This document shows, in pieces, positions 23,493-45,907 of a DNA stretch of 64,000 bases. The notes under the pieces were generated by a model. It was not told the origin of the DNA, did not search any database, and saw only the letters and a program-made list of their open reading frames with translations. Made by a program: the position numbers and the translations under genes. The stretch lies in contig JAQVSV010000001.1 of the NCBI GenBank assembly GCA_028700325.1, forward strand, positions 28,085 to 92,084, given 5' to 3'. This DNA is from Elusimicrobiaceae bacterium (GTDB taxonomy: Bacteria > Elusimicrobiota > Elusimicrobia > Elusimicrobiales > Elusimicrobiaceae). The stretch's first letter is position 1, and each line of letters starts with the position of its first letter.

Positions 23493-23990
23493 TTAAACAC
23501 TTCTGTTGGTGTATAAACCCCCGGACATTTCCGGGGCCGATTGTTTAGCCGCTGCTCGATTCTTCCGATTTTCCGCTTCCTGTATCTTGGCGGAATCCGT
23601 TTTCTTTGGCAAAAACCGCCGTATCAAACCGTTCGTATTTTCTACCGTTCCTTTCTCCCAGCTGTGGTACGCCTCACAAAAATATGACCGCGTTCCGAGT
23701 TCCCGGTTCAGCTTATTGTGTTCATGGTTTTCTGAACCGTTGTCGTATGTTATGCTTCGCCTGAAGTGCGCCGGGCGCTCCCCAGGCGTGGCGCTTGGTG
23801 CCGCGCGAAGATTAATTTCTGTTCATCTGCTCCTGCGTTTGATGGTAATGGCAAGGGTGTGTTTCGAGTGGCCGGGCGGCTCGGCTGCGGTCAGCCCGGA
23901 TCAGGCAAATGCTCCGTTGCGGTGATATTGGTCACATTACGGATACACTCCCTGACGGGACTGGCGGCCCGTATCCTCGCACTGTATTGC
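23493..23990 (-). pseudogene. decayed IS30-family transposase remnant (C-terminal DDE region; no start codon; internal stop)
   Basis: My minus-strand translation gives ..ERPAHFRRSITYDNGSENHEHNKLNRELGTRSYFCEAYHSWEKGTVENTNGLIRRFLPKKTDSAKI.., ending at a TAA at 23493-23495. This matches the IS30 signature (ITFDNG.EF...YF..PY.SWQRGT.ENTNGLLRQY.PKGTD). A TGA interrupts the frame upstream, near 23825. The upstream limit is approximate. Confidence 0.6.
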
Positions 23991-24071
23991 ATTTGCATCA
24001 GTTAAGGGTTACAATGTAGCGACATTCGGGTTATAGCAAGCAGAGTTAATTTCGGCGGCTCAGGGGAAGCT

Positions 24072-25616
24072 ATGCGCATGCGAGAAAAGAAATTTTTTCG
24101 TTTTCCTTTATTTATTTTCTTTTCATTTTTAGCAATATTTGCGGTTGAAACACGGGCGGCGGAAGTGCAGCCGCTGAGCGGGCGCGTAGAAATGCGGCTT
24201 GCCGGCGGAACCGGCTGGAGCCGGGTTTCCGGCCTCACCACCGTGGAAAGCGGTTCATATGTGCGCACCGGGTTCCGTTCCAAAGCGAAAATCTCCTGGA
24301 GTGACGGTTCCGTAGTGGAACTGGGTCCCAATTCCAATTATCAGCTTCATCTGGACGACAGTGCCACCGGCCTGAGCATGACACTGCTGGCCGGAAAACT
24401 CAAAGCCGCCGTGGGCAGACTCAGAGGGCGCAAGTTTGAGGTCGGCACCACCAACGCGGTTTGCGCCGTGCGCGGAACCGAGTTTGAAGTGCAGGTGCAC
24501 AATAACAATACCAGCGTGGTTCTTTACACGGGCAGTCTGGCCGTGTCGGACAATTTCGGCAACCAGCGGCTGCTGGAGCCGGGTTATTCCGTTGATGTCG
24601 GCCCCAACGGCATGGGCGACCTGAAAAACCCCGCGAAACGGAACCAGGAACGCAGGGAAAGCATTAAGCAGAACCTTAAACGGGAAGTGGGCCTGAATAT
24701 GAACAAGGAGCAGGTTCTGTCGGCCGCGGCGGACGAAATCCGGCTGGCCGAATACCAGCAGGGCAAGGTGATGGTTGATGTAAGCGGCCAGCGGGTGCGG
24801 CTGGAGCAGTATATAATGCGGCCCGCTCCGAACCAGTTCAAGCTGGTTTCTCTTAACGACCGGCCGGGCCGGTTTGATTATTTCTATTATCTGGGCACTT
24901 TCAATACCAATCTGCCGGCGGATTTGAGCGTGGCGCTTGGCCAGCTGGGCGGGTGCGTCGGTTCCGCCTGCCAGTACAACATGACGGGTTATGAGGTCGG
25001 CCGGTCCAATACGACTGACACGGTGCTGGAAACCGCTTCCGGCGGGCATATGGTGGATGTCAACGCCAACGCCGATTCATCCGACGACGTGACTTCCTAT
25101 TTCGACGGTACGCTCAACACTTATGTGCTGCTGAACGCCGGCGACGCGTTTTTCAAGACCTTTTACGACGCCTATTCCATAAAATATAACGATATCACCT
25201 TTCTGTCGTGGTCGCCGGTGTCGGGCGCGGGCACGGTGAGCTCGTACCTTACCGGGGTCGCCAACGGCGTGAACAAGTATTACATAACGGACGGCGGTTC
25301 GCTGGGCTCCGCCAACGGCGGCGCGCCCGTTTTGAATGCGGATCTGCATCCCGACGGCGATCTGATGCATGACAAGCTGAAACTCACCTACGGCACCGGC
25401 GAATACTGGGAGCAGTATGACAATTATCTGGTGGATGACCGCGGGAAAGTGGCCACGCTGTCGGATTTCGAGGGCCTGCGCGGCGGCAACGAATACACCC
25501 AGAACATGCTCAAATGGAATTTCGAGCAGGTGGTGACCTGCAATCTGTTCGAGGGCCGGAAAATTGATCTTGTGATCGAGCCGAAAACGCTCATTCAGTC
25601 CAATTTGCTGCAATAA
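24072..25616 (+). CDS. secreted FecR-domain protein
   Basis: Signal/anchor FFRFPLFIFFSFLAIFAVETRA. The FecR-like block is GRVEMRLAGGTGWSRV..VESGSYVRTGFRSKAKISWSDGSVVELGPNSNY...FEVGTTNAVCAVRGTEFEV. Confidence 0.68.
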   Translation: MRMREKKFFRFPLFIFFSFLAIFAVETRAAEVQPLSGRVEMRLAGGTGWSRVSGLTTVESGSYVRTGFRSKAKISWSDGSVVELGPNSNYQLHLDDSATGLSMTLLAGKLKAAVGRLRGRKFEVGTTNAVCAVRGTEFEVQVHNNNTSVVLYTGSLAVSDNFGNQRLLEPGYSVDVGPNGMGDLKNPAKRNQERRESIKQNLKREVGLNMNKEQVLSAAADEIRLAEYQQGKVMVDVSGQRVRLEQYIMRPAPNQFKLVSLNDRPGRFDYFYYLGTFNTNLPADLSVALGQLGGCVGSACQYNMTGYEVGRSNTTDTVLETASGGHMVDVNANADSSDDVTSYFDGTLNTYVLLNAGDAFFKTFYDAYSIKYNDITFLSWSPVSGAGTVSSYLTGVANGVNKYYITDGGSLGSANGGAPVLNADLHPDGDLMHDKLKLTYGTGEYWEQYDNYLVDDRGKVATLSDFEGLRGGNEYTQNMLKWNFEQVVTCNLFEGRKIDLVIEPKTLIQSNLLQ

Positions 25617-25649
25617 GCCCGCTCTGCGGGCGTAACAGGGAGAGTTTTG

Positions 25650-26873
25650 ATGATATTCAAAGCTGCGAAAAAGGCGTTGTTTGTATTGACAGGCTGTATG
25701 TGCGTTGCTTCGCCCGCTTTTGCGGAGGCGGTGCCTTATTTCAGCGCGGATGTGCTTGGCGGACAGTATTTTTACGACGGCAACAGCGGTTCTCTTTCGG
25801 CCAACGCCGACGTGACCGCTTCCGTAGGGCTGGACGCCGGGAGCTGGTTCCTTACGCCGATTTACGAGGGGCGCTATCAGAGCACCCAGCAGGTTTATGA
25901 TATCGTGGGCGGCGGCACGATGTTTAACCAGATGATGAGCCATCGGCTGTCGCTTTCCGCGATTTATGAGTTCGCTTATGGCTGGACGGTCAAGCCGGAA
26001 GCCGGCTACAAGATTTATTATCTGAACGAAACGCGCGACGAAAAATGGGGGACCGGGCTTTTTGATTACCGCCGCACGAACACCGCCGTAACGGTGGAGC
26101 ATATTTACGCGGATCCGTTTTCCGTGCGGTTCGAGGCTGATCTGTACTGGCTGAAATTCCCGAATTACACCTCGCTTGAATCGCAGGTCGGCGGCGATAT
26201 GGCGCGGGAGCTGGCCGGCAAGGATGTGATTAATTCCAGCAATCTGGCGTTTACCGCCAGCATCAACGGCCGCCTGAACATGTTTTTGTGGGATGCGGCG
26301 CTGGGCTACACCAGGCAGTCGTTCGGCAGCCAGCATGTGGTCAACGAGCTGGGCCTTTTTGACAGCGCGACACGCAACGACAATCTTGTTTCCGGGCGGG
26401 CCACGCTGAAATATCCGGTGAAACTTTCGCCTTCCTCGATTGTCATTCCGGGGCTCAGCCTGACCTGTGCGCATAACGGTTCCAACCAGAACAGCTATGA
26501 CGCCACCAGCGCGAAGTTTGTGCCGGAGTTTTATAATTACTCGAAAGCGCGCGTCGGCGCCGACGCGGAGTACCGGCGGCTGGTGCCGGAGTATAAAAAC
26601 AAGTATCTGGCGGTTGATTTCGGTTTGTCTTACGGACGGACCAGCTATCCTTCAAGGCCGGTGCAGAATTCCGCCGGGGCGTACGGTACGGACAATATTT
26701 ATCTCAACGAGTATGTGTGGCGACTGTCGGGCTCGTACCCCGTGTCACAGAAAGTTGATGTCGTGGCCAGCGTCATGTACGGCAACCAGACCTCCAACAT
26801 GAGCTATGAGAAACTATATGTTTACAATTTCAACATTTTCACCTATCTGGCCGGAGTGAAATATGAATTCTGA
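25650..26873 (+). CDS. outer-membrane beta-barrel protein (orphan family)
   Basis: Signal peptide MIFKAAKKALFVLTGCMCVASPAFA. Alternating-hydrophobicity strands rich in Y/G/S/N. The C-terminal YLAGVKYEF ends in Phe, an OMP sorting signature. A TTG at 25647 is an alternative start. Confidence 0.55.
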   Translation: MIFKAAKKALFVLTGCMCVASPAFAEAVPYFSADVLGGQYFYDGNSGSLSANADVTASVGLDAGSWFLTPIYEGRYQSTQQVYDIVGGGTMFNQMMSHRLSLSAIYEFAYGWTVKPEAGYKIYYLNETRDEKWGTGLFDYRRTNTAVTVEHIYADPFSVRFEADLYWLKFPNYTSLESQVGGDMARELAGKDVINSSNLAFTASINGRLNMFLWDAALGYTRQSFGSQHVVNELGLFDSATRNDNLVSGRATLKYPVKLSPSSIVIPGLSLTCAHNGSNQNSYDATSAKFVPEFYNYSKARVGADAEYRRLVPEYKNKYLAVDFGLSYGRTSYPSRPVQNSAGAYGTDNIYLNEYVWRLSGSYPVSQKVDVVASVMYGNQTSNMSYEKLYVYNFNIFTYLAGVKYEF

Positions 26874-29800
26874 AAACATGGCAGTCGTGCCGCCTGAAAA
26901 ACGGGAGAACATTATGGCGCGGTTCTTTAAGCATTTGACCAAATACCTGTGCGCGGCGGTTGCGGCGGCGGCCTTGTCCGCGGGCGCGGCGCAGGCTTAT
27001 ACCATAAGCGGCTATGTGCGGGATCAGAGCGGCAACAGCATTTCAGGCGTCAGCCTCAACGGCTTTTATCCCGGCGCCACCATTTACGCCACTACCGACG
27101 GCGCGGGTTTTTATTCGCTTTCATTTCCCACCGCCGGCGTTTCCTGCGCGGTGGTGCCGCAGGTAAGCGGGCCGGGCGTATATTTCACACCCGAACGGGC
27201 GGATTTCACGCTCACGCAGGATGTCACCAGCGATTTCGTGCAGAATGTGAGCGCCCAGGACGGCGGCCAGTGGGAGTTTGCGGAGGTGGCGGCCGGCGTT
27301 TCCGCGCGGCTGGCCGCAAATGAATCCGGCATACCGTTTATGGCGTATGCCGTAGAGCAGGGCAGCGCGGTTTACGCGAGTATAGCAGGCGGTTCTATTC
27401 AGGCTCTTTTTACGGCTCTCGCCGATACGGCTGCCGTGCCGGCTCCCGCAGTTTACGGTGGCCACTCTTTCATGGCGTATAAATCCCTCTCATCAAATAT
27501 CATGCTGGCAAGCGATGAAACAGGAGTGTGGACTTCCACAATAGCGGCTGGCGCGGGGCCGTCGCTTGACGTGTCTTTGCGGGTAAATTCGTTCGGCAGA
27601 TATCTGCTGTACCGCGGCACGTTTTTGACATTGATGCATGACGGTGCGGAGTCCGTCGTTTCGACTGATGCGGCCTGCGGCCTGAAATCGGCGCTGGCGG
27701 TGGATTCGTCAGGCACGGCGCATGTGCTGTACAGCTGTTCCGGCTCGCCGCAGCGGCTTTTTTACGCGAAGCTGTCGGGCGGGGAATGGGTTTCGGCGCT
27801 GGTGGCGAGCGCTTCGGAGGATACGTTCGATTCCGTTTCCCTGGCTGTTGATTCCGGCGCGCTGCCCTTCGCGTCCTATGTGCTGGCCTCGTCCGCTGAC
27901 GGAAAACGCACGCTTTTCGCGGCGCTGCCCTCCGAAAGTTTCACAGCAGAAGTAAGCACCGGTATCGTCAGTTACAATGCGGTCGCGTTTATAAACGAAA
28001 CGGGCAGGAGCGTGCTGTTTACCGCGACCGACGGGTCCGGCGTGCCGTACCTGCAGAACCGGACTTACCTGTCTTCAGCCGAATTTTCCGACAGCATGAT
28101 AAGCCAGGCTTACGCGCGGCAGATTTCGCTGGTGTCCGAAATCGGGCCCTATATATCTTACGCGACACCGGAAAACCGGATTTTTGCAGGGCGGATGGCC
28201 ACTTCTTCTGTCACCTGCGCTATTTATGGAGCCGTTACGCAGAACAGCGCCGGTCTGTCCGGCGTGACTGTTTCTGTTTATGGCGGCGCGTCCAGCCATA
28301 CTGCCACCACCGATGCGGGAGGCTATTATGCGGTGACGGGCCTTTCAACCGGATCTTATGTGATCACGCCGGCGCTGGCGGAAAAGGTGTTTGAGCCTGC
28401 GCAGGCGACTGTCAATCTGCAAAGCGATACCGAGATTGATTTCACGGCTGCTACAAAAACCTATTCGGTAAGCGGCTCGGTGGCGGCGGGCGGGGTCGGG
28501 CTGGCTTCGGTGAGCGTGACGGGTGTCAGCGGCGGCGAGTCCGCTTCGGCTGTCACCGACAGCAGCGGCGTTTATCTGCTGACCGGTCTGCCCGCAGGCG
28601 TCTGCACTGTCGCGCCCGGCCGGGCCGGTTATGAATTTGCGCCGGCCGCGAGCAGTTTTACCCTTTCAGCGAACACGACGGGGATTGATTTTGAGGCGGC
28701 CCTGTCGCAGCTTTACATAGCGGGCTACATCATTACGGAAGCGTCCGAGCCGGTGGCGGGCGCTACGGTTACCGCGTACAACGGCCAGATCTCATGGATG
28801 ACGGTCAGTGATGCCGCCGGTCTGTATTCGTTTGCCCTGGCGTCGGGTTCGTATCTGCTGGCCCCGGTGAAAGAAGGCTATGCGTTTACTCCTTCCTCCC
28901 GCACGGTTTCGCTTGCTTCGGCAAGTATTTCTGGCGTCAGCTTTGTCGCCGTTTCCACCGCCAGCATACCGCTTTATGCGCTTGCCGGACAGGTTACGAA
29001 AAACTCCGCCGGGTTAAGCGGCGTCTCGATAGGAATAACAGACGGCAGTCACAGCGAGGAAGCCGTTACCGACGGATCCGGCAACTACGGATTTTATGAT
29101 CTGATGGCGGCGCAGTACACGGTCACGCCGCAGCTGGAAGGGCTGGAGTTTTCGCCGGCTTACTCCGTGGTGACGGTTTCGGGCGACGTGTCGGGCGTGG
29201 ATTTCACGGCGGAGGATTCCGGGGTTCTTTCCGCAACGGTTACGGCGGTAAACACGCCGCAGGCTTACGCGTGGGAGAACTATCCGGCATTCACGCTGGC
29301 GCTGTCGGCCGACAGGAATGTTTTTGTCGGATCGGTGACGGTCAGTTTTGCCGACTCCGGCGTGTCGTATAACGATATCTTCGCGATGTTTCTGTATGAG
29401 AACGGAACTCCGGTCGCCAGTTCCTATAACAGCGATTCCACACTCGGGTCGGCAGTGAAACGGGAAGCGCTTATGCCGGTTTCGCTTTCCATAAGCACCG
29501 CGACCCGCACGTTCACTTTAATGATACAGCCCAAGTCTTCCGCTCTGGGCAAAACCGTTTATCCCGTGTTCGCCGGGTTCAGTTCGGCGGCGGGCCAATC
29601 CGTTACGCCGCTGCCGGTGGGCGGAAATGTCGCGCTGGTCGGCTACAAGGCATATGCCGCCAGCTCCGGCGGTCTGGCGACAAGCATTTCCCTGACCGCG
29701 GGCCAGAGTGCGCTGATTGTCGCGCAGGGCCAGTGGCAATATTCCTCCACCGGCACCGCCGGGCCGGACGGGGTGTCCGGTTCCGTGTGCGGAACCGGGT

Positions 29801-41800: not shown

Positions 41801-44800
41801 TCAAGGAATGCACGACCTGTTCCGTCGCCGTCGCGCCGGTCGAGAAACTGGTTACCATGCGCCACGCCATTTATAACACGGGGCTGGTTGTGGTGGATTC
41901 GGCGCAGACCTCCACTTCCGCGGTCAATGTGACGCTGATTGACGGCTGGGACGTTTCCGGTTCCATTTCGCTGCCCAACGGCGTCAGGGATTCCCGCGTT
42001 TTCGCGCTTACCCTGACAAACAAGCGCGGGGACGTTGTGCGTTCGACCCAGATCGCGCTAGGCAACGTTTACACGGGCGAAAAAGCCAATTCCGCCTCGT
42101 ATACGTTCAGCCGCCTGCCAAGCGACGATTTTTACACGCTCGCCGTGGCGGACACCGCCACTTCAACTGCCGCGGTGCGCTATACCGCCGCGCCGATAAC
42201 GTTCCCGTCGCGCAAGGTGTCGCCTTCGGGTCTGCAGTCGAGCCTGACCGGCCAGAATGTTGAAATGGTGGTCGGCGCGCTGCTTTCCGGCAAATTGCGC
42301 GACGCCAATTCCGGCGCGCTCATTACCGTGACGAACGCCACACTGCTCGCGCCCAGTTTCAGCTGTTTCGCGCAGGCCAACCCGTGGGTTACGGGCGGCT
42401 ATTACGCTACGGTTTCTTCCGTGGCGGTCACGATCAACAACGCCACGGAATACAAGCCTGTCGAAGCGGACGGCACATTCCGCATCGGCCCCGTGATGCC
42501 GGGCGTCACCTATGACGTGCAGTGCAGGCAAACCGAATGGAATTCCGGCTATATCCTGCGCGGCGCGCAGAATTATTCGCCCGCTATCGTGGCGGCGGTC
42601 AAGCCTTCTGCCGGCGAGAGCCGCGATCTTGGCGTGCTGGATCTGAAGCAGGGGCAGTCCATCACCGGCACCGTCAGGGATTCGGCCGGCGCGGCTGTTC
42701 CCAACATGCTGGTCAAAGCCAAACCTTCCTCGTCCGATATTGACATGGAAGTGAAGACCTATACCAGCCAGACCGGCGCGTTCAGCCTGTGGGTGTCCAC
42801 TTATGTGTCGCGGTATTATGACATTACCGCCAGCCCCCGCGAGTATTACGACGGGGTGTCCACTGGCACGTTAATGTATAAGGAGGTAACGCTCCGTAAT
42901 CAGGATCTGCAGGACCGGACTACCTTTGCGTTCACGCTCAGCCCCGTGCGGGGCGGAGTCGCTGGCCGTGTGATTACGGCGGACGGCGGCGCGCTTTATT
43001 ATCCTTACGGGGATCTGCGCGGCTATCCCGCCGCCGCGGTTTTTCTCCAGCCTTACGGGGTGGTGCCCGTGAATAATCCGCTGGGCGACATTGAAACATA
43101 TACCCAGTCGGACGGCAGTTTCGAGGTGCCCGGTGTTTCGACCGGAATATATACGCTCAAGGTTGTCAGCATCGGTTACGGGTTCGCGTCATCCACGGTC
43201 AATGTGGCCAGCACCGGCACGCTGGATGCGGGCACCATAACGCTGCGCCGCGGCGCGAGCGCCGAAGGCACGATACTGAAAACCGACGGCAGTTCGCCCA
43301 GCACCGATGAAATCGGTTCGGTGATAGCGGTTTCGCCGGACTTCTCGGAATACCTGTTCGGCACGCTCGACACGGATGCGCTGTCGCGGTCAGTGCAGAG
43401 CTACAGCCTGACGGGGTTCAGCACCGGAACTCTTTATTCCATCGCGCTGGTGTCGCCTGACGGAGAGGATATTACGTTCCCCGTCGAGGGCCAGGTTTCG
43501 TTCGACGAGGCCAGCTCGACCGATACCGTCACCGCCGACCTGACTTATGCGCCGGGCGGCGTTGACTGCGGCGCGGTGGCCAAGAAAACCGGAACCGCCA
43601 CGTTCAGCCTCCAGTTCACCTGCTCGCGCCAGTTAAGAAGCCTCACCGCGGCGGACAGCACGGTTTCCCAGCTGGTGTGGCTTAGCAGCATAACCGCAGG
43701 CGGCGCGCCTGTTTCCGGCGACGACGGAACCGGCACGCTCGGTTACGGCGCCATCACCGCCGACCGGCGCGGACTGGCCGCCTCCTACGTCATGTCGAGC
43801 ACTGAAGACAGCCGCTTCAGCATTTTGCTTACGGCATATTTCAACGCCATTGATCCGGCCACAGGCGACTATTTCCATATCGCCAAGCGGTTTGATTTCT
43901 ACACCGGCATCCAGAGCGCGACCAGCCGCCGCATCAGCAACCTCATCGGCGGCGCCTTGAACGTGGAATCGGCTGAAGGCGAAAGCGAAAGTTCGGGGCT
44001 GGATTTCAATCCCGGCTGTCTCAATAACTCGACCGGCACGTTCGTGGTGGATTTGTCCACCACGATCGGAATGCAGAAGTTTACCGCGCTCGAAGACGTG
44101 CCGGCAACCCAGTCGCTCGCTTCGGCGGGCGCGCGCGACCGGTTCGGCGCGGGCCGCCTGCCGCAGGAAATTGTGGACGCGAGAAAAGCGTTCGCGGAAA
44201 AACGGATAACGGCTTCATTCCGCGCGCAGTCGAGTTCCACGGCCACTTACCGGGCGATCAGCTCGTTCTACAATATCTTCCTGCCCGCCGGCATCAACCA
44301 TATCCTGCGCCAGAACGCGCGGCTGACGCTCAGTTATGACGCGGTGTCCGACCCCAATAACGTCAATGTCTGGTACTATAATCCCGACACCGGGCGGTAC
44401 CAGCTGGAAGCCAGCAACCGGACCATTGACACCATCAACAACACCATCGCGGTGGATGTGGACCACTTCTCCACCTTCGTGGTGATGGAAACGCAGCCGG
44501 TGTATACCTCCACCACCGCATACGGCGGGCTGAATCTGGCGGCGTACAACTTCCCCAACCCGTTCAATCTTGAAACCAAGACGAAGCAGGTCAACACCTC
44601 GCCGGGTTCCGGATCCTATACTGCCGGACAGAATATCACCACGGAGGGCACTGTTATAAGGGTGGCGGTGCCGGCGTCGGCTGTTTCGGGCACGGGCCAT
44701 ATAAAAATCTATAATATGGCCGGCGAACTGGTGCGCAAGATCGGCATCAGCGGCGTTGCGGGCGGCGCCTACGAGTATTTCGCGTGGGACGGGCGCAACA

Positions 44801-44907
44801 ACAGCGGCGAAAAAGTGGCCAGCGGAGTTTATATCGGAGAGGTTAAGGTCGATGATCAGCAAACTTTCTTTAAAATGGCCGTAGTCAAGGATTCAAAATA
44901 CCGTTAA
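26863..44907 (+). CDS. giant mosaic secreted surface protein (6,014 codons) with T9SS-type/FlgD-Ig-like C-terminal sorting domain
   Basis: The frame is uninterrupted for 18,045 nt. GGAG lies 6 nt before ATG 26863. An alternative ATG at 26914 is also SD-preceded. Signal peptide ..KYLCAAVAAAALSAGAAQA. It carries many recognisable beta-rich modules (see sub-features). No competing ORF on any frame approaches this length. Confidence 0.88.
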   Translation: MNSENMAVVPPEKRENIMARFFKHLTKYLCAAVAAAALSAGAAQAYTISGYVRDQSGNSISGVSLNGFYPGATIYATTDGAGFYSLSFPTAGVSCAVVPQVSGPGVYFTPERADFTLTQDVTSDFVQNVSAQDGGQWEFAEVAAGVSARLAANESGIPFMAYAVEQGSAVYASIAGGSIQALFTALADTAAVPAPAVYGGHSFMAYKSLSSNIMLASDETGVWTSTIAAGAGPSLDVSLRVNSFGRYLLYRGTFLTLMHDGAESVVSTDAACGLKSALAVDSSGTAHVLYSCSGSPQRLFYAKLSGGEWVSALVASASEDTFDSVSLAVDSGALPFASYVLASSADGKRTLFAALPSESFTAEVSTGIVSYNAVAFINETGRSVLFTATDGSGVPYLQNRTYLSSAEFSDSMISQAYARQISLVSEIGPYISYATPENRIFAGRMATSSVTCAIYGAVTQNSAGLSGVTVSVYGGASSHTATTDAGGYYAVTGLSTGSYVITPALAEKVFEPAQATVNLQSDTEIDFTAATKTYSVSGSVAAGGVGLASVSVTGVSGGESASAVTDSSGVYLLTGLPAGVCTVAPGRAGYEFAPAASSFTLSANTTGIDFEAALSQLYIAGYIITEASEPVAGATVTAYNGQISWMTVSDAAGLYSFALASGSYLLAPVKEGYAFTPSSRTVSLASASISGVSFVAVSTASIPLYALAGQVTKNSAGLSGVSIGITDGSHSEEAVTDGSGNYGFYDLMAAQYTVTPQLEGLEFSPAYSVVTVSGDVSGVDFTAEDSGVLSATVTAVNTPQAYAWENYPAFTLALSADRNVFVGSVTVSFADSGVSYNDIFAMFLYENGTPVASSYNSDSTLGSAVKREALMPVSLSISTATRTFTLMIQPKSSALGKTVYPVFAGFSSAAGQSVTPLPVGGNVALVGYKAYAASSGGLATSISLTAGQSALIVAQGQWQYSSTGTAGPDGVSGSVCGTGCQLPGSPRGMLLARIGYYSTVFYPVGSSATITSPAGAATDSVYLSINDDYFTDNSGGLFVLPQIVSRVIVWTGAGGTEYAAEPLNWNTGVVPANGDTVLFSSMVAKACAWNISAQPKLITLYYYPGALNVVGSYTLLAETLTINNSRLRMSGTAAGARPYISVGTLNAIDSELVFSDAMGVSADNFSVLRGTVSITGSDYAGFGGCSGHSVVLENAALDISSVAFQNAGTISVRGGSVAKFDNVSVNLSAEASSPMVTVYGLSGYNTFDRWNFYNYGGSAVYNVISTGNASGAQVVFANAGGNYMGSVHSLNLDGALRWEPDGGGTAALALTAVYSATDTYTYRFEVTTVTGTPVAAGSAAAGAKSILFSGLTAPATYYIKAYADENGNAVADGYEPKGKAAVALVANSSGAASVALADFGKAAGYLYSVSQSGKVLGQAYSSGALVDQVELGSLADGTTVHWELYLPTGTYTLNAFVDVNGSGSRDSFEAGFSAENVEISKGAENYLGNAGLVSAAVSTVSVSAAAGHDGIIYARGGSATLFNLLASASGDPAVISSFSFFSAGSYYAAGAYAVNVTRDSNYNGLCDAADSVLGSAYANGGAAVPLTVSFNPVVVSTGQSERFCVTLAGAVALERNSTVGVSLASSGIGAANGHVEFAAITSTVTVKFNVDAAVAVSSFSGGTGTGVYLEPGMVVSLVSTGTWYISGSAAGAGGANYKGGILPDVNSGALMARVGIGPWFAVGSASSFTYTMIYSGELYFAMNKYQTSSASGNLLVDFSAVNPGNGAAGSVSYAGAKAQQLFIKAQSVSSGDVLASTSMALNGAGSYPYSLTGISTGTAFFIKAYWSDVSTSAVGQYREELTMYTGSVRTGLDFAVFDGYGALPLTVTYYGSFADKLIAHMIVGASEFERTVATGTQTLALPAPGIYRVAVFEDRNGDGEPAGLENMGMFGYDGPVALFEQNGGTVAVTVGGTSAPVAITVLPKGGLAGVGKICGLSGRFMFVAGHGIPGTAGYQAENWESSWLDGAAANASCLSLNYDIGMLRAATDYSLLLFNDSNMNDIYDDGEKFSLLAGPISIATGMVVNRDITLVAVSTVPVMPSAISTYAVTASSIVWTWPSVFGATGYMLFFTSGSTVTLSATSYTETVGVPNTRSGLYGVAAYNAIGLGPVKTVENAVYTRAAKVALSVMSADNVSVRLAVDRAGNPAATAVNIYRSANSTAAYVLVSSLTAGATQFADIYGVVPGVQYWYAATAFNGNYVAGETSVPVSTVTPSAAGADYVRGTVYYSGRQQGNLRVELFGSAVRDGWAVANGSAAFSAIASFNGFMLAGTESGGVYKSTDGINWVSAATVSGSVKSFAQNGSVYYLSGSKGIYSGSGSGSWSLVYAASSGMGRLLVYNGKVYCGDGNRLAQSSGSGFDVAETGIPAARAISSLAVFGGYMYAGVLPSVSAYTETQGDYVYRAALASLGSWTASLNAKMLGVYDLAVWNGRLYAASGNSGLIFSLETADGVWSNTAVAATKVVNFSSFRGQLAVAAQTGPGVLVSPEHGRWAAVAPSGVVYMNGLCQFNGKLYAAAAARLYAGFAQPAYSVVSPVQSQNSFYISGVPAGTPYYPRAFVDVTGDAVLEPGEDSVFYSTSVMAAGTANMTLAVSTGAPAAPGAPSACAVNGVVSVLWTAPSSASNLLGYRVYRSTAQAGPYAEISGSEPAGYVPWNRTSFSDSNPPSGSVYYRLKSLDWGYNESAGVTGLPVNVLQPGRIEGSLYSLSASTSVQYYVTVSSVSSPLGAALYSIPLADGQSYSAPNLSDGLYYVRAFADANANRVFDSGEALGAYGGIAYPYGVYVNYGSVSGSKNVTVCPVTRIRPGDSLNVVISSADCEIRDSGVSRHGKIFSFEVGYGDGKVSPGSGIQLTASGGGLGSAELRLIDPDFNAMFNTGTIYYGADTEGFYYLEAAAPAENAAGDVNVSLYINSNSGGKITGVASYYGASTGTAVFMLYRKAEYDAGNYWPVNMATAPVADNAASFTMYGMENGLFYMTAYVDVNADGVRETWEPYGFYGSVQPEALAVSSGAASRVSLALTDPVMGSISGYVTYSGSSRGSVRVEARQPREGNDSNDYVLYASTMFARASENVSAPFTLAGLPPSASYYITAYVDANDNMSGDTLEPNVFEGPYTVAAGSVTENVSVSIADIGTGAPGYASITGTVTYAGGAVTSRLMLGFFTDTEGRHMPYTAFVEPDGATDTWHFSRSGIMGGTTYYIGAVLDFNSNGFDDAGEPKTMFMDGDGNPVPVYPAADGSAAVSMTLSALPDGSISGTARYYGSQAGKYMSVNIYSDNCRSDYCSARYRVLLTTATQYPFTGEFLQDSTSYSIYAYVDVNENQTQDNGEPDYSSYPDKLELGEADRALTGVDFTVTRSEDRWNNATLRASFDYDGAQRGDVYMRLYQNGGAVASRTSSPVSYTDGAVVVMAGLSTGVYTADAFIDTNGNGLYDSVFEPYAQVKYGGSAQLALTYKDPVLYDASATFKDPGSASLSSGALTVAGLIAVKSSAAGALRTLLFKYSDSADAMQIPLLNGLIARTAGVGCSSYSFTALSSGNYLVQAFIDVNGNYQPDDGEPWGQSAVALVSPVPSSGTLALDFAVSDRTSLNVGGEFAYQASSATGYVQERPGSYARLFSISGSAGDVINAGMTPASGFSYARLYLYGPYMNQTGSALRYNLLASAEADAQTGAASILAYKLAQSGVYTLAAVAYEEAAAGGFKLKYLRSGQGSGSISGTVDYTGSRGGKFIVAIFGDANVYTGSALLYTTLPVAGAFSFSGLPGGSNYYIGAFIDTNGNGIRDAGEDYGYYSVAGSTVPQGVSVLNGQDVSGLRVTVNSVSDPASQAQVSGVLNYSGSLAGNARVEAWTSSAYTGTPAGVRNIASPVYPQAFSMQVPGGSAYYFRAYADSAPYGEFDLNAEAAGAYNSGQPVYLKQGGNSSLDYVIQLNDPGYDPTASAVGGEGYAALVSTSAAAASSYSGQINFVAGASGIQQGGRISVALPSGLYATLTTVTAYGYGVVQASAPGYDSGTLSVSAGQSYAELTVLSEAGLAAGATVQITIGPLYLPCASGDFAFSVGSSQNGSLAPKALRSGQPVLRILSGSATRFTGRPADAAESAAYNFSIVSGEDVPFVATALDTCGNPAIAGSTVNVNIHAQKQSTVTWMYSDDPSVLFSTGSQFVSVATVAFAAGMSSAPFTVRATQAGAQKTMVFRSSSGMYTDSVYFTALAGVPITGAAVSSAVYGVGRSSVTIVPSVNATGGAAYINFNLSLANTYDNWQVVIASKPFIAGAAVSEIWQFWGSGTPVPGKVVWNGRYSYNNSIVPSGWYYVKIAYSGFTDTSLKIYVQSPEVYGVVRDESVSPAAAVAGAVINVFSASGGGYAKTAEDGSYSIPGLSSGSYRFEIAASGYVKLSTQVTLGAARTNVDFGMEKAAQLVIVPSLSQSNPYPNDSGGGVSAYDGTQNYFTNIRLKGGTTSFVAADVWDSLTNSYVSSDRIALDVTPGVYSVNGYLDNYGNVYVERVEVSASGATVELPAFESRRNVSGTLTVASAAYSRYASLNAEPVNGNSSSHWGWASAEIPASVSGAAYHVYGIDAGSYTISATGDGLPRVSTLVYITANDLSGVDFDFTKVQNNVIRGTVTVTVQDAAQWSALKTQMDGSFMEARLTAWAPKGSGYASENVKFTSASVSGLVARAAYTLTGLDAGAEYQVYAELSPYSEGDPGEYTSVGALPKLVTISSATGLANLDIGFARASGTITGTVYLPEGSSDFGNVAMTGMVTQSENPYEIGQVMNEGGSDPVTSFPGFRCFNGAAAVNGVCADGVNIASFTVTGQKTKTMDMVFTYGATGLSRSYKLTVVNGSTVTAVVDMRADTYSISGAVINRINANSLNTMARLIANSTVTVPAGYPVQEGTLPIEMVRRSANSFSTTVDYDPSLVRVGYITQSGTYTITGLQEGVYTLRTRGLKECTTCSVAVAPVEKLVTMRHAIYNTGLVVVDSAQTSTSAVNVTLIDGWDVSGSISLPNGVRDSRVFALTLTNKRGDVVRSTQIALGNVYTGEKANSASYTFSRLPSDDFYTLAVADTATSTAAVRYTAAPITFPSRKVSPSGLQSSLTGQNVEMVVGALLSGKLRDANSGALITVTNATLLAPSFSCFAQANPWVTGGYYATVSSVAVTINNATEYKPVEADGTFRIGPVMPGVTYDVQCRQTEWNSGYILRGAQNYSPAIVAAVKPSAGESRDLGVLDLKQGQSITGTVRDSAGAAVPNMLVKAKPSSSDIDMEVKTYTSQTGAFSLWVSTYVSRYYDITASPREYYDGVSTGTLMYKEVTLRNQDLQDRTTFAFTLSPVRGGVAGRVITADGGALYYPYGDLRGYPAAAVFLQPYGVVPVNNPLGDIETYTQSDGSFEVPGVSTGIYTLKVVSIGYGFASSTVNVASTGTLDAGTITLRRGASAEGTILKTDGSSPSTDEIGSVIAVSPDFSEYLFGTLDTDALSRSVQSYSLTGFSTGTLYSIALVSPDGEDITFPVEGQVSFDEASSTDTVTADLTYAPGGVDCGAVAKKTGTATFSLQFTCSRQLRSLTAADSTVSQLVWLSSITAGGAPVSGDDGTGTLGYGAITADRRGLAASYVMSSTEDSRFSILLTAYFNAIDPATGDYFHIAKRFDFYTGIQSATSRRISNLIGGALNVESAEGESESSGLDFNPGCLNNSTGTFVVDLSTTIGMQKFTALEDVPATQSLASAGARDRFGAGRLPQEIVDARKAFAEKRITASFRAQSSSTATYRAISSFYNIFLPAGINHILRQNARLTLSYDAVSDPNNVNVWYYNPDTGRYQLEASNRTIDTINNTIAVDVDHFSTFVVMETQPVYTSTTAYGGLNLAAYNFPNPFNLETKTKQVNTSPGSGSYTAGQNITTEGTVIRVAVPASAVSGTGHIKIYNMAGELVRKIGISGVAGGAYEYFAWDGRNNSGEKVASGVYIGEVKVDDQQTFFKMAVVKDSKYR
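28210..29215 (+). repeat. four tandem carboxypeptidase-regulatory-like (CarboxypepD_reg/Cna-B-like) domains inside the giant ORF
   Basis: The repeating pattern is Y.(I/V)(S/A)G.V......L.GV.V........(A/T)(T/V)TD..G.Y....L..G.Y.(V/I).P...G(Y/L).F.P......(L/V).......DF.A, about 80-85 aa each. A fifth copy is at 26998-27240 and further copies are at ~39960-40200, ~42650-42850 and ~42950-43250. Confidence 0.65.
29620..29990 (+). other. LecA/PA-IL-like lectin-fold module 1 (giant ORF)
   Basis: LIVAQGQWQYSSTGTAGPDGVSGSVCGTGCQLPGSPRGMLLARIGYYSTVFYPVGSSATITSPAGAATDSVYLSINDDYFTDNSGGLFV tracks, from memory, Pseudomonas LecA (ITIVAAGWASYGP..GPQG...C....CGALVMKIG.....PV......LIYNDVPGTYGNNSGSFSV). Confidence 0.45.
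30000..30760 (+). other. right-handed beta-helix-like segment (giant ORF)
   Basis: Begins VWTGAGGTEYAAEPLNWNTGVVPANGDTVLF, as in autotransporter-type beta-strand repeats. Short repeats of about 20-25 aa rich in G/S/N/V follow. Confidence 0.4.
31800..32150 (+). other. LecA/PA-IL-like lectin-fold module 2 (giant ORF)
   Basis: MVVSLVSTGTWYISGSAAGAGGANYKGGILPDVNSGALMARVGIGPWFAVGSASSFTYTMIYSGELYFAMNKYQTSSASGNLLVDF has the same strand order as module 1. Confidence 0.4.
33090..33620 (+). other. two tandem fibronectin type III-like domains (giant ORF)
   Basis: P.AIS.Y.VTASSIVWTWPSV.GATGY.LF...Y..AYN..G.GP. and ..SV.L.V....NPAAT.V.IYRS......Y..V.......F.D....PG..YWY...AFNG. A third FN3 is at ~34770-35060 (VSVLWTAP....LLGYRVYRS...GPY). 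Confidence 0.6.
33715..34545 (+). other. beta-propeller-like insert with a BNR/Asp-box-like motif and Kelch-like NGxxY blades, nested inside one DUF2141-like module
   Basis: YKSTDGINWVS (Asp-box-like). Blades marked by VYNGKVYCGDG, VFGGYMYAGV, VWNGRLYAASG, SFRGQLAVAA and QFNGKLYAAAA. The host module starts at GTVYYSGRQQGNLRVELFGSA and resumes at NSFYISGVPAGTPYYPRAFVDVTGDAVLEPGED. Confidence 0.5.
39685..39950 (+). other. internal FlgD-Ig/T9SS-CTD-like domain in the middle of the giant ORF
   Basis: AAYINFNLSLANTYDNWQVVIASK...GKVVWNGRYSYNNSIVPSGWYYVKIAYSGFTDTSLKIYV has the same pattern as the true C-terminal domain (..IKIYNMAGELV...WDGRNNSGEKVASGVYIGEVKV). An invasin/Big_1-like stretch ATALDTCGNPAIAGSTVNVNI precedes it. 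Confidence 0.45.
44530..44904 (+). other. C-terminal sorting domain, T9SS type A / FlgD-Ig-like
   Basis: AYNFPNPFNLETK...HIKIYNMAGELVRKI...YEYFAWDGRNNSGEKVASGVYIGEVKVDDQQTFFKMAVVK matches the Por_Secre_tail pattern (NYPNPFN...I.IYD..G..V......G.....WDG.N..G..V.SGVY). Confidence 0.7.
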
Positions 44908-44932
44908 CGGCGGTTGCACAAAGGAGAATGAT

Positions 44933-45907
44933 ATGAAATATAACCCTAATATTACCGCCGCCGGTCCGACACAGCGAATCCCGAAAACGCTCGGCGCGGT
45001 TTTGTGCGCGCTGGTTTTTTCATGCGGCGCGGCTTTTGCCGCAGGGGAAGGCACCAGCGCCGCCCAGTTTCTGAAAATAGGCGCGGGGTCGAAACCCGGC
45101 GCCATGGCCGACGCATACACCGCGCTCGCCGATGACGTGTACGCGCTGTATTATAATCCAGCGGGCATGGCGCGGATGGCGCGTCCGCAGTTCGCGGGCC
45201 AGCTGACGAACTATTTTCAGGACTCGGATTACGGGTTCCTGGGGTTCGCCTATCCGTTCAGGGACGGCAGCGGCGAAACGCGGCACAGCATCGGCGTTTC
45301 GATCTATAGCCTGAAAGTGAACAGCCTTGAGCGGCGCACCCAGGATACCGACAATTCGGCCGGCCTGTTTGACGCCAGCGACATGGCTTATTCGCTCAGC
45401 TATGCCTGCCGCGTGAGCAGGGGGCTGGGGCTGGGCGCGTCGGCCAAATACATCCGCGGGCAGATTGACGACGTGAAAGCCAGCGCGTTCGCCATGGATT
45501 TCGGCGCGCAGTATGTATTCGAGCGGCTGAGCCTGGGCGTTACGGTGCGCAACGCGGGCTCGAAAATGAAATACGGTTCGGAGGCTGATTTCCTGCCGCT
45601 GGGCGTGTTTTTCGGGCTTGGCTACCGCGCCGGCGACGCGCTCGCGCTGGCGCTGGAAACCTATAAATACCGCGACTATAAACTGTGCGGCGCGTTCGGC
45701 GCTGATTATACGCAGGAGCTGGTCAGATCGGCGTTGTGGGGTTCGCTGCGCGCGGGCTATACCACCCATAACACCGATTCGGACGGGTTTAATGGAGCCA
45801 CTTTCGGCGCGGGGCTTAAATACTCCAAAACCGCGTTTGATTTCGCGTGGGTTCCGTTCGGCGATCTGGGCAACACGTTCAGGTATACGCTCTCCGTGCA
45901 GTTTTAA
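44933..45907 (+). CDS. PorV/PorQ-family-like outer-membrane beta-barrel protein
   Basis: Signal peptide ..LCALVFSCGAAFA. The block GTSAAQFLKIGAGSKPGAMADAYTALADDVYALYYNPAGMA is typical of the PorV/PorQ (UPF0164) family. C-terminal ..FRYTLSVQF. It starts 25 nt after the giant ORF stop. Confidence 0.6.
   Translation: MKYNPNITAAGPTQRIPKTLGAVLCALVFSCGAAFAAGEGTSAAQFLKIGAGSKPGAMADAYTALADDVYALYYNPAGMARMARPQFAGQLTNYFQDSDYGFLGFAYPFRDGSGETRHSIGVSIYSLKVNSLERRTQDTDNSAGLFDASDMAYSLSYACRVSRGLGLGASAKYIRGQIDDVKASAFAMDFGAQYVFERLSLGVTVRNAGSKMKYGSEADFLPLGVFFGLGYRAGDALALALETYKYRDYKLCGAFGADYTQELVRSALWGSLRAGYTTHNTDSDGFNGATFGAGLKYSKTAFDFAWVPFGDLGNTFRYTLSVQF

What the first reader, a model, noticed from the sequence alone, without database searches (positions are those of the whole stretch)
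24072..45907. FecR-like / orphan barrel / 6,014-aa cargo / PorV-like: candidate self-contained export-and-anchoring operon for a giant surface protein
Four same-strand genes are packed with almost no spacing. The FecR stop at 25616 is followed by the barrel start at 25650. The barrel stop codon (26871-26873) overlaps the first SD-preceded ATG of the giant ORF (26863). The giant ORF stop at 44907 is followed by the PorV-like start at 44933.

The cargo ends in a T9SS-type sorting domain, and the next gene is the barrel family that in Bacteroidota shuttles such cargo. None of the large T9SS core genes (SprA/Sov translocon, PorK/L/M/N) is visible in 64 kb. Instead a FecR-fold periplasmic protein and a 408-aa barrel of no recognisable family precede the cargo. 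There are also no T1SS (ABC/MFP/TolC), T5SS (POTRA/TpsB, autotransporter barrel) or RTX GGxGxD signatures.

This arrangement is not one of the described giant-adhesin secretion architectures. It may be a minimal or novel outer-membrane delivery system dedicated to a single very large substrate.
Basis: partly seen in the sequence, partly recalled or inferred. Interest (0 to 1): 0.88.

Follow-up and report, generated by a model that had tools for sequence, protein, structure and literature searches.

The report
Conserved Elusimicrobiota giant-surface-protein export/anchor cassette
Four tightly packed genes (a FecR-like periplasmic protein, an unclassified outer-membrane barrel, a 6,014-residue surface protein with a type-IX-like C-terminal domain, and a PorV-family barrel) form a cassette that recurs and co-evolves throughout the little-studied phylum Elusimicrobiota, and I found no description of it in the papers I could search.

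Summary
All four ORFs, their coordinates and their tight junctions are real. The window comes from an Elusimicrobiaceae MAG.

The genes are not chance neighbours:
- Of 68 related loci with enough upstream DNA, 64 have the FecR-like gene directly before the barrel.
- Every C-terminal-domain (CTD) ORF that could be tested (22/22) is followed at once by a PorV-like gene, and the reverse also holds (22/22).
- Partners co-diverge (r≈0.87). Paralogous cassettes in one genome share only 35-47% identity, while each has closer orthologues elsewhere.

The "cargo" is itself a family. Its last ~2,000 residues align colinearly with the whole 1,900-2,600-residue cargos of other cassettes. The first ~3,950 residues here are a lineage-specific extension.

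The PorV-like protein is a true PorV/PorQ-family member. The CTD passes FlgD_ig and resembles the retained CTDs of PorU and PorZ, but fails the type A and type B T9SS models. The 16-strand barrel and the C-terminal domain of the FecR-like protein match no known family.

Best reading: a cargo-dedicated module for surface display. The CTD docks in its own PorV-like barrel, as SprB does with SprF. The FecR-like/barrel pair forms a second outer-membrane complex.

Whether the module is self-contained or needs a SprA-type translocon elsewhere could not be tested. Verdict: new variant of a known kind; interest 0.7.

The parts
23395..24071 (+). About 680 nt of non-coding leader between tRNA-Glu (23321-23394, minus strand) and the first cassette gene. 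It is the presumed promoter region.
   Evidence: tRNA. The only ORF here (23506-23925, 139 aa) has no family. No sigma-70-like site on the + strand was found, so the promoter is inferred, not shown.
24072..25616 (+). FecR-like periplasmic protein, 514 aa. It has a signal peptide (aa 1-29), a FecR/PupR-type domain (aa ~30-180), two helices (aa 187-223), and a conserved beta-rich C-terminal domain of unknown fold (aa ~225-514).
   Evidence: Pfam FecR, 59 bits. AF2 model pLDDT 82.9. Foldseek matches aa ~30-180 to PupR 6OVK_R and BDI_1681 4M0N, rmsd about 2 A over 127 residues, E 2e-7; nothing matches the C-terminal domain. 170 full-length homologues; every one that carries a taxon name is Elusimicrobiota except two labelled only 'bacterium'.
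25650..26873 (+). Outer-membrane beta-barrel of about 16 strands and no described family, 407 aa. It has a signal peptide and ends in the OMP-type motif ...VKYEF.
   Evidence: AF2 pLDDT 89.5, pTM 0.83, 16 long strands. Foldseek finds only generic barrels at TM about 0.45, such as PgaA, OccD3, AlgE and BcsC. No Pfam, NCBIfam or PDB sequence match. The family has 537 clusters at 50% identity among 1.84 billion representatives.
26863..38769 (+). Cargo, N-terminal part (aa 1 to ~3969). It has a Sec signal peptide (probably starting from the ATG at 26914) and a lineage-specific extension built from CarboxypepD_reg/transthyretin-like, DUF2141-like, Fn3-like and propeller-like modules.
   Evidence: Pfam. 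Translation. This part is not shared with the complete cargos of nine other cassettes.
38770..44541 (+). Cargo, conserved core (aa ~3970-5893). It aligns colinearly with nearly the whole length of the 1,879-2,574-aa cargos of other cassettes.
   Evidence: BLASTP gives single HSPs running from query aa 3971-4293 to aa 6009 (so they include the CTD listed separately), 27-31% identity, E 1e-136 to 1e-170. phmmer with the last 900 aa gives E 1e-100 to 1e-215 in 22 cargos. No NCBIfam or PDB match except at the CTD.
44542..44907 (+). C-terminal domain (aa 5894-6014), of the FlgD_ig / T9SS-CTD-like beta-sandwich type. Motifs: NFPNPF ... IYN-AGELVR ... WDG-N--G--VASGVYIG ... FFKMAVVK. It is the most conserved part of the cargo.
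   Evidence: FlgD_ig 42.7 bits; CHU_C 17.2 and Por_Secre_tail 13.5 bits, both below threshold. NCBIfam hits to the CTDs of PorZ (E 1e-6) and PorU (E 1e-4). The CTD profile hits FlgD and the PorZ 5M11 C-terminus at E 0.01. Mean identity 49% against 40% for the core.
44933..45907 (+). PorV/PorQ-family outer-membrane barrel, 324 aa. It is the cognate partner of the CTD.
   Evidence: NF033709 158 bits (cutoff 90); PorQ 91 bits and PorV 68 bits, both below their equivalog cutoffs. The family profile matches solved F. johnsoniae PorV 6H3I_F at E 1.9e-21 over nearly the full length. It always directly follows a CTD ORF (22/22). It co-diverges with the CTD, r = 0.87.

Best explanation
This is one copy of a four-gene envelope module that is conserved across the phylum Elusimicrobiota. 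The module places one very large beta-sandwich-rich protein on the cell surface and holds it there.

**Shown.**
- The four protein families are inherited and duplicated as a unit.
- Three of the four have N-terminal Sec-type signal peptides (read from the translations for the FecR-like protein, the cargo and the PorV-like protein; predicted as an N-terminal helix for the barrel).
- The cargo carries a T9SS-CTD-like domain at its extreme C-terminus.
- The next gene is a true PorV/PorQ-family barrel, present 1:1 with the cargo.

**Inferred mechanism.**
1. After Sec export, the CTD docks non-covalently into its own PorV-like barrel. That barrel serves as the permanent surface anchor. The precedents are PorV holding PorU, PorQ holding PorZ, and the PorP-like barrel SprF holding the 669-kDa SprB.
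2. The FecR-like protein is periplasmic. Its FecR domain is of the kind that contacts outer-membrane barrels in FecA/FecR-type systems. Together with its cognate 16-strand barrel it forms a second outer-membrane complex.
3. I take that complex to be the module's own conduit or assembly station, through which the unfolded cargo is threaded. Folding of the many extracellular beta-sandwich domains would drive export. A periplasmic-tether role, like PorE-PorP, is the close alternative.

**How likely each layer is.**
- A functional, cargo-dedicated surface-display module: about 0.85.
- CTD to PorV-like anchoring: about 0.6.
- The FecR-like/barrel pair acting as the translocon, so that no SprA-type pore is needed: about 0.3-0.35.
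For: **Synteny.**
- 204 genomic relatives of the barrel were found. The best 80 are all in Elusimicrobiota-labelled records, except one labelled only 'bacterium' (L005).
- 64 of 68 loci with at least 1.7 kb of upstream sequence have FecR-like directly upstream.
- The downstream ORF is open-ended or at least 1,000 aa in about 61 of the 83 loci (over 3,000 aa and still open in 28); most of the rest run into a contig end within about 3 kb.
- Complete quartets occur in relatives sharing 32-37% barrel identity (L015, L027, L047, L049, L053, L063, L072, L084, L085).
- Tandem cassettes are frequent.

**1:1 pairing.** 22/22 CTD ORFs are followed by a PorV-like gene, and 22/22 PorV-like genes are preceded by a CTD ORF.

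**Co-divergence.**
- Barrel against FecR-like: r = 0.87, and nearest neighbours coincide in 43/67 cases against about 1 by permutation.
- CTD against PorV-like: r = 0.87, nearest neighbours coincide in 15/22.
- Paralogues on the same contig or in the same MAG share 35-47% identity (barrel), while orthologues in other genomes share 47-73%.

**Family membership.**
- PorV-like: NF033709 158 bits and solved PorV at E 1.9e-21.
- CTD: resembles the retained CTDs of PorZ and PorU. A small cassette cargo (L089, an M6 peptidase) passes TIGR04183 with 26.7 bits against a cutoff of 23.
- Barrel: high-confidence model of about 16 strands.
- FecR domain: matches PupR.

**Precedent.** Cargo-specific FadL-type barrels encoded next to giant CTD cargo, together with an associated periplasmic protein, are described for PorE-PorP-PG1035 and SprB-SprF (PMC9143113).
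Against: - No protein-protein contact, localisation or transcript was tested. Every functional step is inferred.
- The genome could not be searched for SprA/Sov, PorK/L/M/N or PorU. In all characterised systems, CTD cargo and PorV/PorP barrels depend on these.
- The FecR-like/barrel pair exists without a giant cargo or a PorV-like gene in distant variants (L087, L088, L091). Its basic function therefore cannot be cargo translocation alone.
- Two of those variants sit near ECF-sigma/anti-sigma-like genes, which hints at signalling.
- The CTD fails the curated T9SS type A and type B thresholds.
- The cassette has no energy source or inner-membrane component.
Confidence: 0.5

Rival explanations
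1. The cassette is a cargo-specific accessory module of a canonical T9SS encoded elsewhere in the genome. The cargo would cross the outer membrane through a SprA/Sov-type translocon powered by PorLM. The PorV-like barrel would collect and anchor it, as SprF does for SprB. The FecR-like/barrel pair would act as a tether or helper, like PorE-PorP or SprC/SprD.
For: - The CTD and the PorV family are hallmarks of T9SS.
- F. johnsoniae has 10 PorP-like barrels, each cognate to a type B CTD cargo. Six lie next to porE-like genes, and all depend on SprA (PMC9143113).
- In Bacteroidota the T9SS core genes are dispersed around the genome (my own knowledge; not checked in a paper here), so their absence from 64 kb is uninformative.
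- A related cassette cargo passes TIGR04183.
Against: - T9SS is described as a system of the phylum Bacteroidetes (PMC9143113).
- No paper in the searchable library links Elusimicrobiota to T9SS.
- No T9SS-core Pfam family appears among the precomputed annotations of the neighbourhoods inspected.
- In about 1.4 Mb of held Elusimicrobiota DNA, every CTD ORF sits in a cassette and all but one (L089) is followed by a recognisable PorV-like gene. No scattered CTD secretome was seen. The sample is biased, however, and the CTD model used was cassette-specific.
- An extra dedicated 16-strand barrel per cargo has no counterpart in T9SS.
Confidence: 0.35
2. The FecR-like/barrel pair is a trans-envelope sensing device of the cell-surface-signalling kind, like FecA/FecR. 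It would report the state of the surface fibre or an external cue. It would not be an export component. Only the cargo and the PorV-like barrel would make up the display system.
For: - The FecR domain matches the periplasmic signalling domain of the anti-sigma regulators PupR and BDI_1681.
- Cargo-less variants lie next to sigma-factor genes. L088 has an ECF sigma, a weak anti-sigma hit, a protein consisting of the C-terminal domain only, and then the barrel. L091 has a sigma-70-family gene (weak region-4 Pfam hits only) and a protein with the anti-sigma zinc-finger motif H-x3-C-x2-C about 4 kb upstream.
- The pair occurs without cargo in L087.
Against: - The window protein has no cytoplasmic anti-sigma domain. 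The FecR domain begins right after the signal peptide.
- No sigma or anti-sigma family matched any window ORF that was scanned (small ORFs were not scanned). None appears among the genes of the four-gene cassettes whose annotated neighbourhoods were inspected.
- The barrel has no TonB-dependent plug or N-terminal signalling domain.
- The strict one-pair-per-cargo arrangement, often with overlapping stop and start codons, fits a stoichiometric structural partner better than a regulator.
Confidence: 0.12
3. An ordinary secreted adhesin whose neighbours are there by chance.
For: None beyond the general fact that large adhesin genes often have unrelated neighbours.
Against: Gene order is conserved in 64/68 and 22/22 comparisons. 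Partners co-diverge. Cassettes are duplicated as whole units, and their stop and start codons overlap.
Confidence: 0.02

Closest known systems
T9SS type B cargo modules of Bacteroidota: SprB-SprF (sprCDBF) in Flavobacterium johnsoniae and PorE-PorP-PG1035 in Porphyromonas gingivalis (PMC9143113)
   Same: - A very large repetitive surface protein (SprB, 669 kDa) has a C-terminal sorting domain.
- A cargo-specific FadL-type barrel is encoded right next to it and anchors it.
- There are several paralogous cargo/barrel pairs per genome.
- A periplasmic partner protein (PorE) is bound to an outer-membrane barrel.
   Different: - Here the adjacent barrel belongs to the PorV/PorQ family, not PorP/SprF. 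There is no PF11751 hit.
- The CTD is FlgD_ig / type-A-like, not CHU_C at threshold.
- A second, unrelated 16-strand barrel and a FecR-domain protein replace PorE/SprC/SprD.
- The host phylum is Elusimicrobiota.
- Dependence on SprA is unknown.
T9SS attachment complex PorU-PorV / PorZ-PorQ
   Same: - A PorV/PorQ-family barrel holds a surface protein through that protein's uncleaved CTD (my own knowledge of the attachment-complex literature; the paper read here states only that the complex comprises PorU-PorV-PorQ-PorZ).
- The CTD here scores best against the CTDs of PorZ and PorU.
   Different: - The anchored protein here is a 2,000-6,000-residue fibre-like protein, not a sortase or an LPS-delivery protein.
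- There is one barrel per cargo, encoded in an operon with it.
- No sortase is in evidence.
Two-partner secretion (T5bSS, TpsA/TpsB such as FHA/FhaC)
   Same: - A dedicated 16-strand barrel is encoded next to a multi-thousand-residue exoprotein.
- There is no inner-membrane energy component.
- Export would be driven by extracellular folding.
   Different: - The barrel has no POTRA domains and no Omp85 signature.
- The cargo has no N-terminal TPS domain.
- The conserved signal-like domain is at the C-terminus.
FecA-FecR-FecI cell-surface signalling
   Same: A periplasmic FecR-type domain is paired genetically with an outer-membrane barrel. Some cargo-less variants lie next to ECF-sigma genes.
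   Different: - There is no anti-sigma N-domain and no TonB-dependent transducer.
- The four-gene cassette has no sigma factor.
- The protein carries a conserved C-terminal domain of about 300 residues that has no known fold.

Membership tests
PorV/PorQ family (NCBIfam NF033709; Pfam PF19572) | Whole-protein score above the curated family cutoff | tested here: met
   NF033709 158.3 bits against a cutoff of 90. PF19572 scores 27 bits, equal to its cutoff of 27.
PorV/PorQ family (NCBIfam NF033709; Pfam PF19572) | Full-length sequence homology to an experimentally solved PorV | tested here: met
   Profile A5 matches 6H3I_F (F. johnsoniae PorV) at E 1.9e-21. Two stretches cover profile positions 14-227 and 262-317.
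PorV/PorQ family (NCBIfam NF033709; Pfam PF19572) | Orthology to PorV or PorQ proper (equivalog cutoffs) | tested here: not met
   PorQ NF033711 91 bits (cutoff 220). PorV NF033710 68 bits (cutoff 250). PorV2 65 bits (cutoff 325). It is a family member but not an orthologue of either.
PorV/PorQ family (NCBIfam NF033709; Pfam PF19572) | 14-strand FadL-type barrel fold; binding to a CTD and to SprA | not tested
No multimer tool was available.
T9SS type A C-terminal sorting domain (TIGR04183 / PF18962) | Domain model matched above threshold at the extreme C-terminus | tested here: not met
   PF18962 13.5 bits (cutoff 27). There is no TIGR04183 hit at E<=0.1. FlgD_ig, which Pfam files as a separate family, passes at 42.7 bits. 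A homologous cassette cargo in L089 does pass TIGR04183, 26.7 bits against 23.
T9SS type A C-terminal sorting domain (TIGR04183 / PF18962) | Carried by a protein with an N-terminal Sec signal peptide; secretion depends on SprA/PorV; cleaved by PorU | tested here: inconclusive
   The signal peptide is present. Dependence on the T9SS core and cleavage cannot be tested in silico here.
T9SS type B CTD (CHU_C, PF13585) with a PorP/SprF partner | CHU_C match above threshold and an adjacent PorP/SprF-family barrel | tested here: not met
   CHU_C 17.2 bits (cutoff 27). Neither barrel matches PorP/SprF in Pfam or NCBIfam.
Canonical T9SS (system level) | SprA/Sov translocon, the PorK/L/M/N motor-ring genes and the PorU sortase present in the genome | not testable with these tools
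   None is present among the window ORFs scanned or in the inspected neighbourhoods.
FecR-type anti-sigma regulator (cell-surface signalling) | Periplasmic FecR domain | tested here: met
   PF04773 59.4 bits (cutoff 24). Foldseek to PupR 6OVK_R, rmsd 1.7 A over 127 residues.
FecR-type anti-sigma regulator (cell-surface signalling) | N-terminal cytoplasmic anti-sigma domain plus a transmembrane helix; adjacent ECF sigma and TonB-dependent transducer | tested here: not met
   The FecR domain starts at about aa 30, right after the signal peptide. The FecR equivalog NF007296 scores 18 bits against a cutoff of 385. No sigma factor or TonB-dependent receptor family matched any window ORF scanned.
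Two-partner secretion (T5bSS) | Omp85 barrel with POTRA domains, and a TPS domain at the cargo N-terminus | tested here: not met
   There are no Pfam or NCBIfam hits of this kind on the barrel or the cargo. The barrel model begins its strands at aa 28 with no periplasmic domain.

The most novel reading that the evidence does not exclude
The cassette is a self-sufficient outer-membrane export-and-anchoring system, either a minimal relative or a forerunner of type IX secretion. In this reading a T9SS-like CTD and a PorV-family barrel work without a SprA translocon or a PorLM motor. The unclassified 16-strand barrel and its FecR-like periplasmic partner would provide the conduit for proteins of 2,000 to more than 7,000 residues. 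That would amount to a new secretion pathway, found mainly in Elusimicrobiota and possibly in Omnitrophota.
Probability: 0.3. Interest if true: 0.9.

Novelty: new variant of a known kind. Interest (0 to 1): 0.7.

Why it matters
- CTD signals and PorV-type barrels are currently understood only as parts of the Bacteroidota type IX secretion system.
- Here they appear outside that superphylum. They form a compact, multi-copy module that co-evolves and is joined to two protein families with no known relatives.
- If the host genomes lack SprA and PorLM, this would be a new route for moving giant proteins across an outer membrane. It would also give a view of how T9SS was assembled from simpler parts.
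- If the core is present, the cassette extends T9SS to a new phylum and adds a new class of cargo-specific accessory components.
- Either way, it defines what is probably the main surface structure of a widespread and barely cultivated phylum.
- It also assigns a context to four uncharacterised families: about 537 barrel clusters, at least 170 FecR-like proteins, at least 341 PorV-like proteins and the cargo core.

Tried and rejected
- **Finding a family for the barrel.** Pfam and NCBIfam gave nothing, even at E<=10. The PDB sequence profile gave nothing. Foldseek against the PDB gave only generic 14-18-strand barrels at TM about 0.45. hhalign against the PorV-like family gave a probability of 0.4%. 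I therefore rejected PorP/SprF, FadL, Omp85 and secretin-type membership.
- **The C-terminal domain of the FecR-like protein.** Foldseek found no PDB match.
- **The cargo core.** There is no NCBIfam or PDB match apart from the CTD.
- **Literature.** Searches on Elusimicrobi* with T9SS, type IX or PorV, and on PorV with FecR, returned nothing relevant. The giant-gene papers and the groundwater Elusimicrobia paper do not mention the cassette. The E. minutum genome paper is not held.
- **Extending the window.** I tried to reach the rest of the 99.8-kb contig to look for T9SS core genes. One look-up returned only another short contig that mostly overlaps the window, and the other found nothing.
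- **First genome scan.** It was repeated with 12 sequences.
- **Downstream sulfatase-like gene as a fifth cassette member.** It has no homologue near any other cassette, so I rejected it.
- **Terminator and promoter scans.** They gave nothing above the shuffled expectation.
- **Rfam.** It found only the two tRNAs.

Full report
**1.

I read the junctions directly:
- The FecR-like stop is at 25614-25616. A GGGAGAG motif and then ATG 25650 follow.
- The barrel stop is TGA at 26871-26873. It overlaps ATG 26863, which is preceded by GGAG.
- A second ATG at 26914, preceded by GGGAGAA, yields a canonical signal peptide and may be the real cargo start.
- The cargo stop is at 44905-44907. AAGGAGA and then ATG 44933 follow.

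No terminator-like site lies in a junction, and the counts do not exceed the shuffled expectation.

The first protein has a FecR domain at aa 64-155. The last is a PorV/PorQ-family protein, NF033709 at 158 bits against a cutoff of 90. The 408-aa protein has no match at all.

The giant protein is a string of CarboxypepD_reg/transthyretin-like and DUF2141-like modules, together with Fn3-like and propeller-like regions, that ends in a FlgD_ig domain. That C-terminal domain fails the curated T9SS models: Por_Secre_tail 13.5 bits and CHU_C 17.2 bits, both with a cutoff of 27. Its best NCBIfam matches are the C-terminal domains of PorZ and PorU.

The rest of the window holds housekeeping genes and two tRNAs. 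No secretion-system core genes appear among the ORFs scanned.

**2. Source organism and family range**

The barrel is 100% identical to a hypothetical protein of an Elusimicrobiaceae MAG on a 99.8-kb contig.

All three small proteins have many homologues. Those that carry a taxon name are Elusimicrobiota, apart from a few labelled only 'bacterium'.

An exhaustive HMMER search with the barrel profile found only 537 clusters at 50% identity among 1.84 billion representatives. A few are labelled Omnitrophota.

**3. The neighbours are not there by chance**

A scan of species-representative genomes found 204 relatives of the barrel. The best 80 loci are all in Elusimicrobiota-labelled records, except one labelled only 'bacterium'. 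I called ORFs in these loci and searched them with the window's proteins.

| Test | Result |
|---|---|
| FecR-like gene directly before the barrel (loci with at least 1.7 kb upstream) | 64 of 68 (four of them via a ~300-residue N-terminal extension of the barrel ORF) |
| Terminal CTD ORF followed at once by a PorV-like gene | 22 of 22 |
| PorV-like gene preceded by a CTD ORF | 22 of 22 |

The ORF downstream of the barrel is huge in most loci, often over 3,000 residues and still open at the edge of the 10-kb flank. Most of the shorter ones run into a contig end within about 3 kb.

Complete compact quartets occur in distant relatives. In L084 and L085 the order is FecR-like 547/574 aa, barrel 405/404 aa, cargo 2,061/2,060 aa, PorV-like 306/304 aa, with overlapping stop and start codons.

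Tandem cassettes are common, in the order cargo, PorV-like, FecR-like, barrel, cargo. At least eleven assemblies in the top 80 carry two copies.

**4. The components co-evolve as cognate sets**

| Pair compared | Pearson r of pairwise identities | Nearest neighbours coincide |
|---|---|---|
| Barrel and its FecR-like partner | 0.87 | 43 of 67 (about 1 by permutation) |
| CTD and PorV-like | 0.87 | 15 of 22 |

Paralogous cassettes on one contig share only 35-47% identity (barrel), while each has an orthologue of 47-73% in another genome. The cassette was therefore duplicated long ago and has been inherited as a unit since.

**5. The cargo is itself a conserved family**

Residues ~3970-6009 of the 6,014-residue protein align in a single colinear HSP with almost the whole of the complete 1,879-2,574-residue cargos of nine other cassettes (27-31% identity, E 1e-136 to 1e-170). 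The last 900 residues match 22 cargos at E 1e-100 to 1e-215.

The first ~3,950 residues here are a lineage-specific extension. The CTD is the best conserved part, at 49% mean identity against 40% for the core. Apart from the CTD, the core matches nothing in NCBIfam or the PDB.

**6. Structures**

- **Barrel.** It models with high confidence (pLDDT 89.5, pTM 0.83) as a barrel of about 16 strands with no periplasmic domain. Foldseek returns only generic porin and exopolysaccharide-channel barrels at TM about 0.45. It shows no detectable relationship to the PorV-like family (hhalign probability 0.4%).
- **FecR-like protein.** The model has pLDDT 82.9. Residues ~30-180 superpose on the periplasmic signalling domains of the anti-sigma regulators PupR and BDI_1681, at rmsd about 2 A. 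The protein has no cytoplasmic anti-sigma domain. Its well-conserved C-terminal ~300 residues have no PDB counterpart.
- **PorV-like family.** Its profile matches solved F. johnsoniae PorV (6H3I_F) at E 1.9e-21 over nearly the full length.

**7. Variants that bear on function**

- A cassette in an AT-rich relative (L089) carries a small cargo. It is a 537-residue M6 peptidase whose CTD passes TIGR04183, 26.7 bits against 23. The module is therefore not restricted to giants, and its CTD is homologous to type A CTDs.
- The FecR-like/barrel pair also occurs without a giant cargo or a PorV-like gene:
  - L087 is an Omnitrophota-labelled MAG in which the barrel lies convergent with a 1,156-residue FecR/TSP3 protein.
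  - L088 has the order ECF sigma, weak anti-sigma hit, a protein consisting of the C-terminal domain only, barrel.
  - L091 is from Endomicrobiia. It has a 162-residue FecR protein, two small genes and then the barrel. A sigma-70-family gene (weak region-4 Pfam hits only) and a protein with the zinc-finger anti-sigma motif lie about 4 kb upstream.
- The cassette therefore looks like two sub-modules joined together: FecR-like with the barrel, and the CTD protein with PorV-like.

**8. Mechanism**

The layer I hold with confidence is that this is a cargo-dedicated envelope module for displaying a very large protein on the surface.

The CTD to PorV-like step rests on three things: the 1:1 pairing, the co-divergence, and direct precedent. 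[quoted passage not shown] SprB (669 kDa) is anchored by SprF, which is encoded next to it. F. johnsoniae has ten such cognate barrels, six of them beside porE-like genes (PMC9143113).

For the FecR-like/barrel pair I favour a role as the module's own outer-membrane conduit or assembly station, with a PorE-PorP-like tether as the close alternative. A signalling role is a weaker rival. The ECF-sigma neighbours of the cargo-less variants support it. The missing anti-sigma domain and the strict one-pair-per-cargo stoichiometry argue against it.

**9. What could not be settled**

I could not determine whether these genomes encode SprA/Sov, PorK/L/M/N or PorU. The single genome-collection scan went to the synteny survey, and attempts to extend the contig failed.

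T9SS is described as a system of the phylum Bacteroidetes. No searchable paper links it, or this cassette, to Elusimicrobiota. I saw no T9SS-core Pfam family in any inspected neighbourhood. I also saw no CTD proteins outside cassettes in about 1.4 Mb of held sequence, although that sample is biased towards cassettes.

I therefore put the self-contained reading at about 0.3 and the T9SS-dependent reading at about 0.35.

**10. Verdict**

It is best filed as a new variant of the known CTD-cargo/cognate-barrel theme. It occurs in a new phylum and involves two or three protein families with no known relatives. Interest 0.7.

Noticed in passing
window 38770-44541: The C-terminal ~2,000 residues of the giant protein form a conserved family that makes up almost the whole of shorter cargos elsewhere. 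The N-terminal ~3,950 residues are a lineage-specific extension. The core has no Pfam-level family of its own.
   Followed up: yes
L087 1991-6850; L088 7575-12203; L091 2587-11191: The FecR-like and barrel genes occur without a giant cargo or a PorV-like gene. One case is in an Omnitrophota-labelled MAG. Two cases lie near sigma-factor and anti-sigma-like genes (an ECF sigma directly upstream in L088; a weak sigma-70-family hit about 4 kb upstream in L091). This hints at an older function for the pair, possibly signalling.
   Followed up: partly
L089 7233-13732: This cassette has a small cargo, a 537-aa M6 metallopeptidase whose CTD passes TIGR04183. The following 295-aa OMP-like protein is only weakly PorV-like (E 0.02). 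An extra OMP-like gene of about 250 aa sits between FecR and the barrel; it is also present in L091.
   Followed up: partly
L001 11261-11713; L086 13870-14322: A 150-aa cyclic-nucleotide-binding-domain gene is inserted between the barrel and the cargo in some cassettes.
   Followed up: no
P0013, P0019, P0021, P0031, P0325-P0327; loci L011, L013, L017, L020: Some barrel homologues carry an N-terminal extension of about 150-550 residues, giving total lengths of 554-946 aa. One has an Fn3 domain.
   Followed up: no
window 45953-52895: A run of envelope or glycan genes lies directly downstream on the same strand: a sulfatase-domain protein of 630 aa, a GT2-methyltransferase fusion, a ManC-type mannose-1-phosphate guanylyltransferase/isomerase, and a 651-aa protein of no family. 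No terminator lies between the PorV-like gene and the first of these. However, the first of them (the sulfatase-domain gene, the only one tested) has no homologue next to any cassette in relatives.
   Followed up: partly
window 23321-23394 (-) and 23395-24071: tRNA-Glu (CTC) lies just upstream, followed by about 680 nt without a credible gene before the cassette. No promoter-like site on the + strand was found there.
   Followed up: partly
window 24072-24164: The public annotation starts the FecR-like protein 31 codons later (483 aa, P0079). That start would remove the predicted signal peptide, so the longer ORF looks more plausible.
   Followed up: no
window 60701-62377 (-): Serine hydroxymethyltransferase is fused to an N-terminal domain resembling a low-molecular-weight phosphotyrosine phosphatase (558 aa).
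   Followed up: no
L084 11044-20921: A second giant ORF (over 3,400 aa, with Big_ and OmpL47-type domains and a FlgD_ig hit) starts right after the PorV-like gene, with no FecR-like or barrel gene of its own in between.
   Followed up: no
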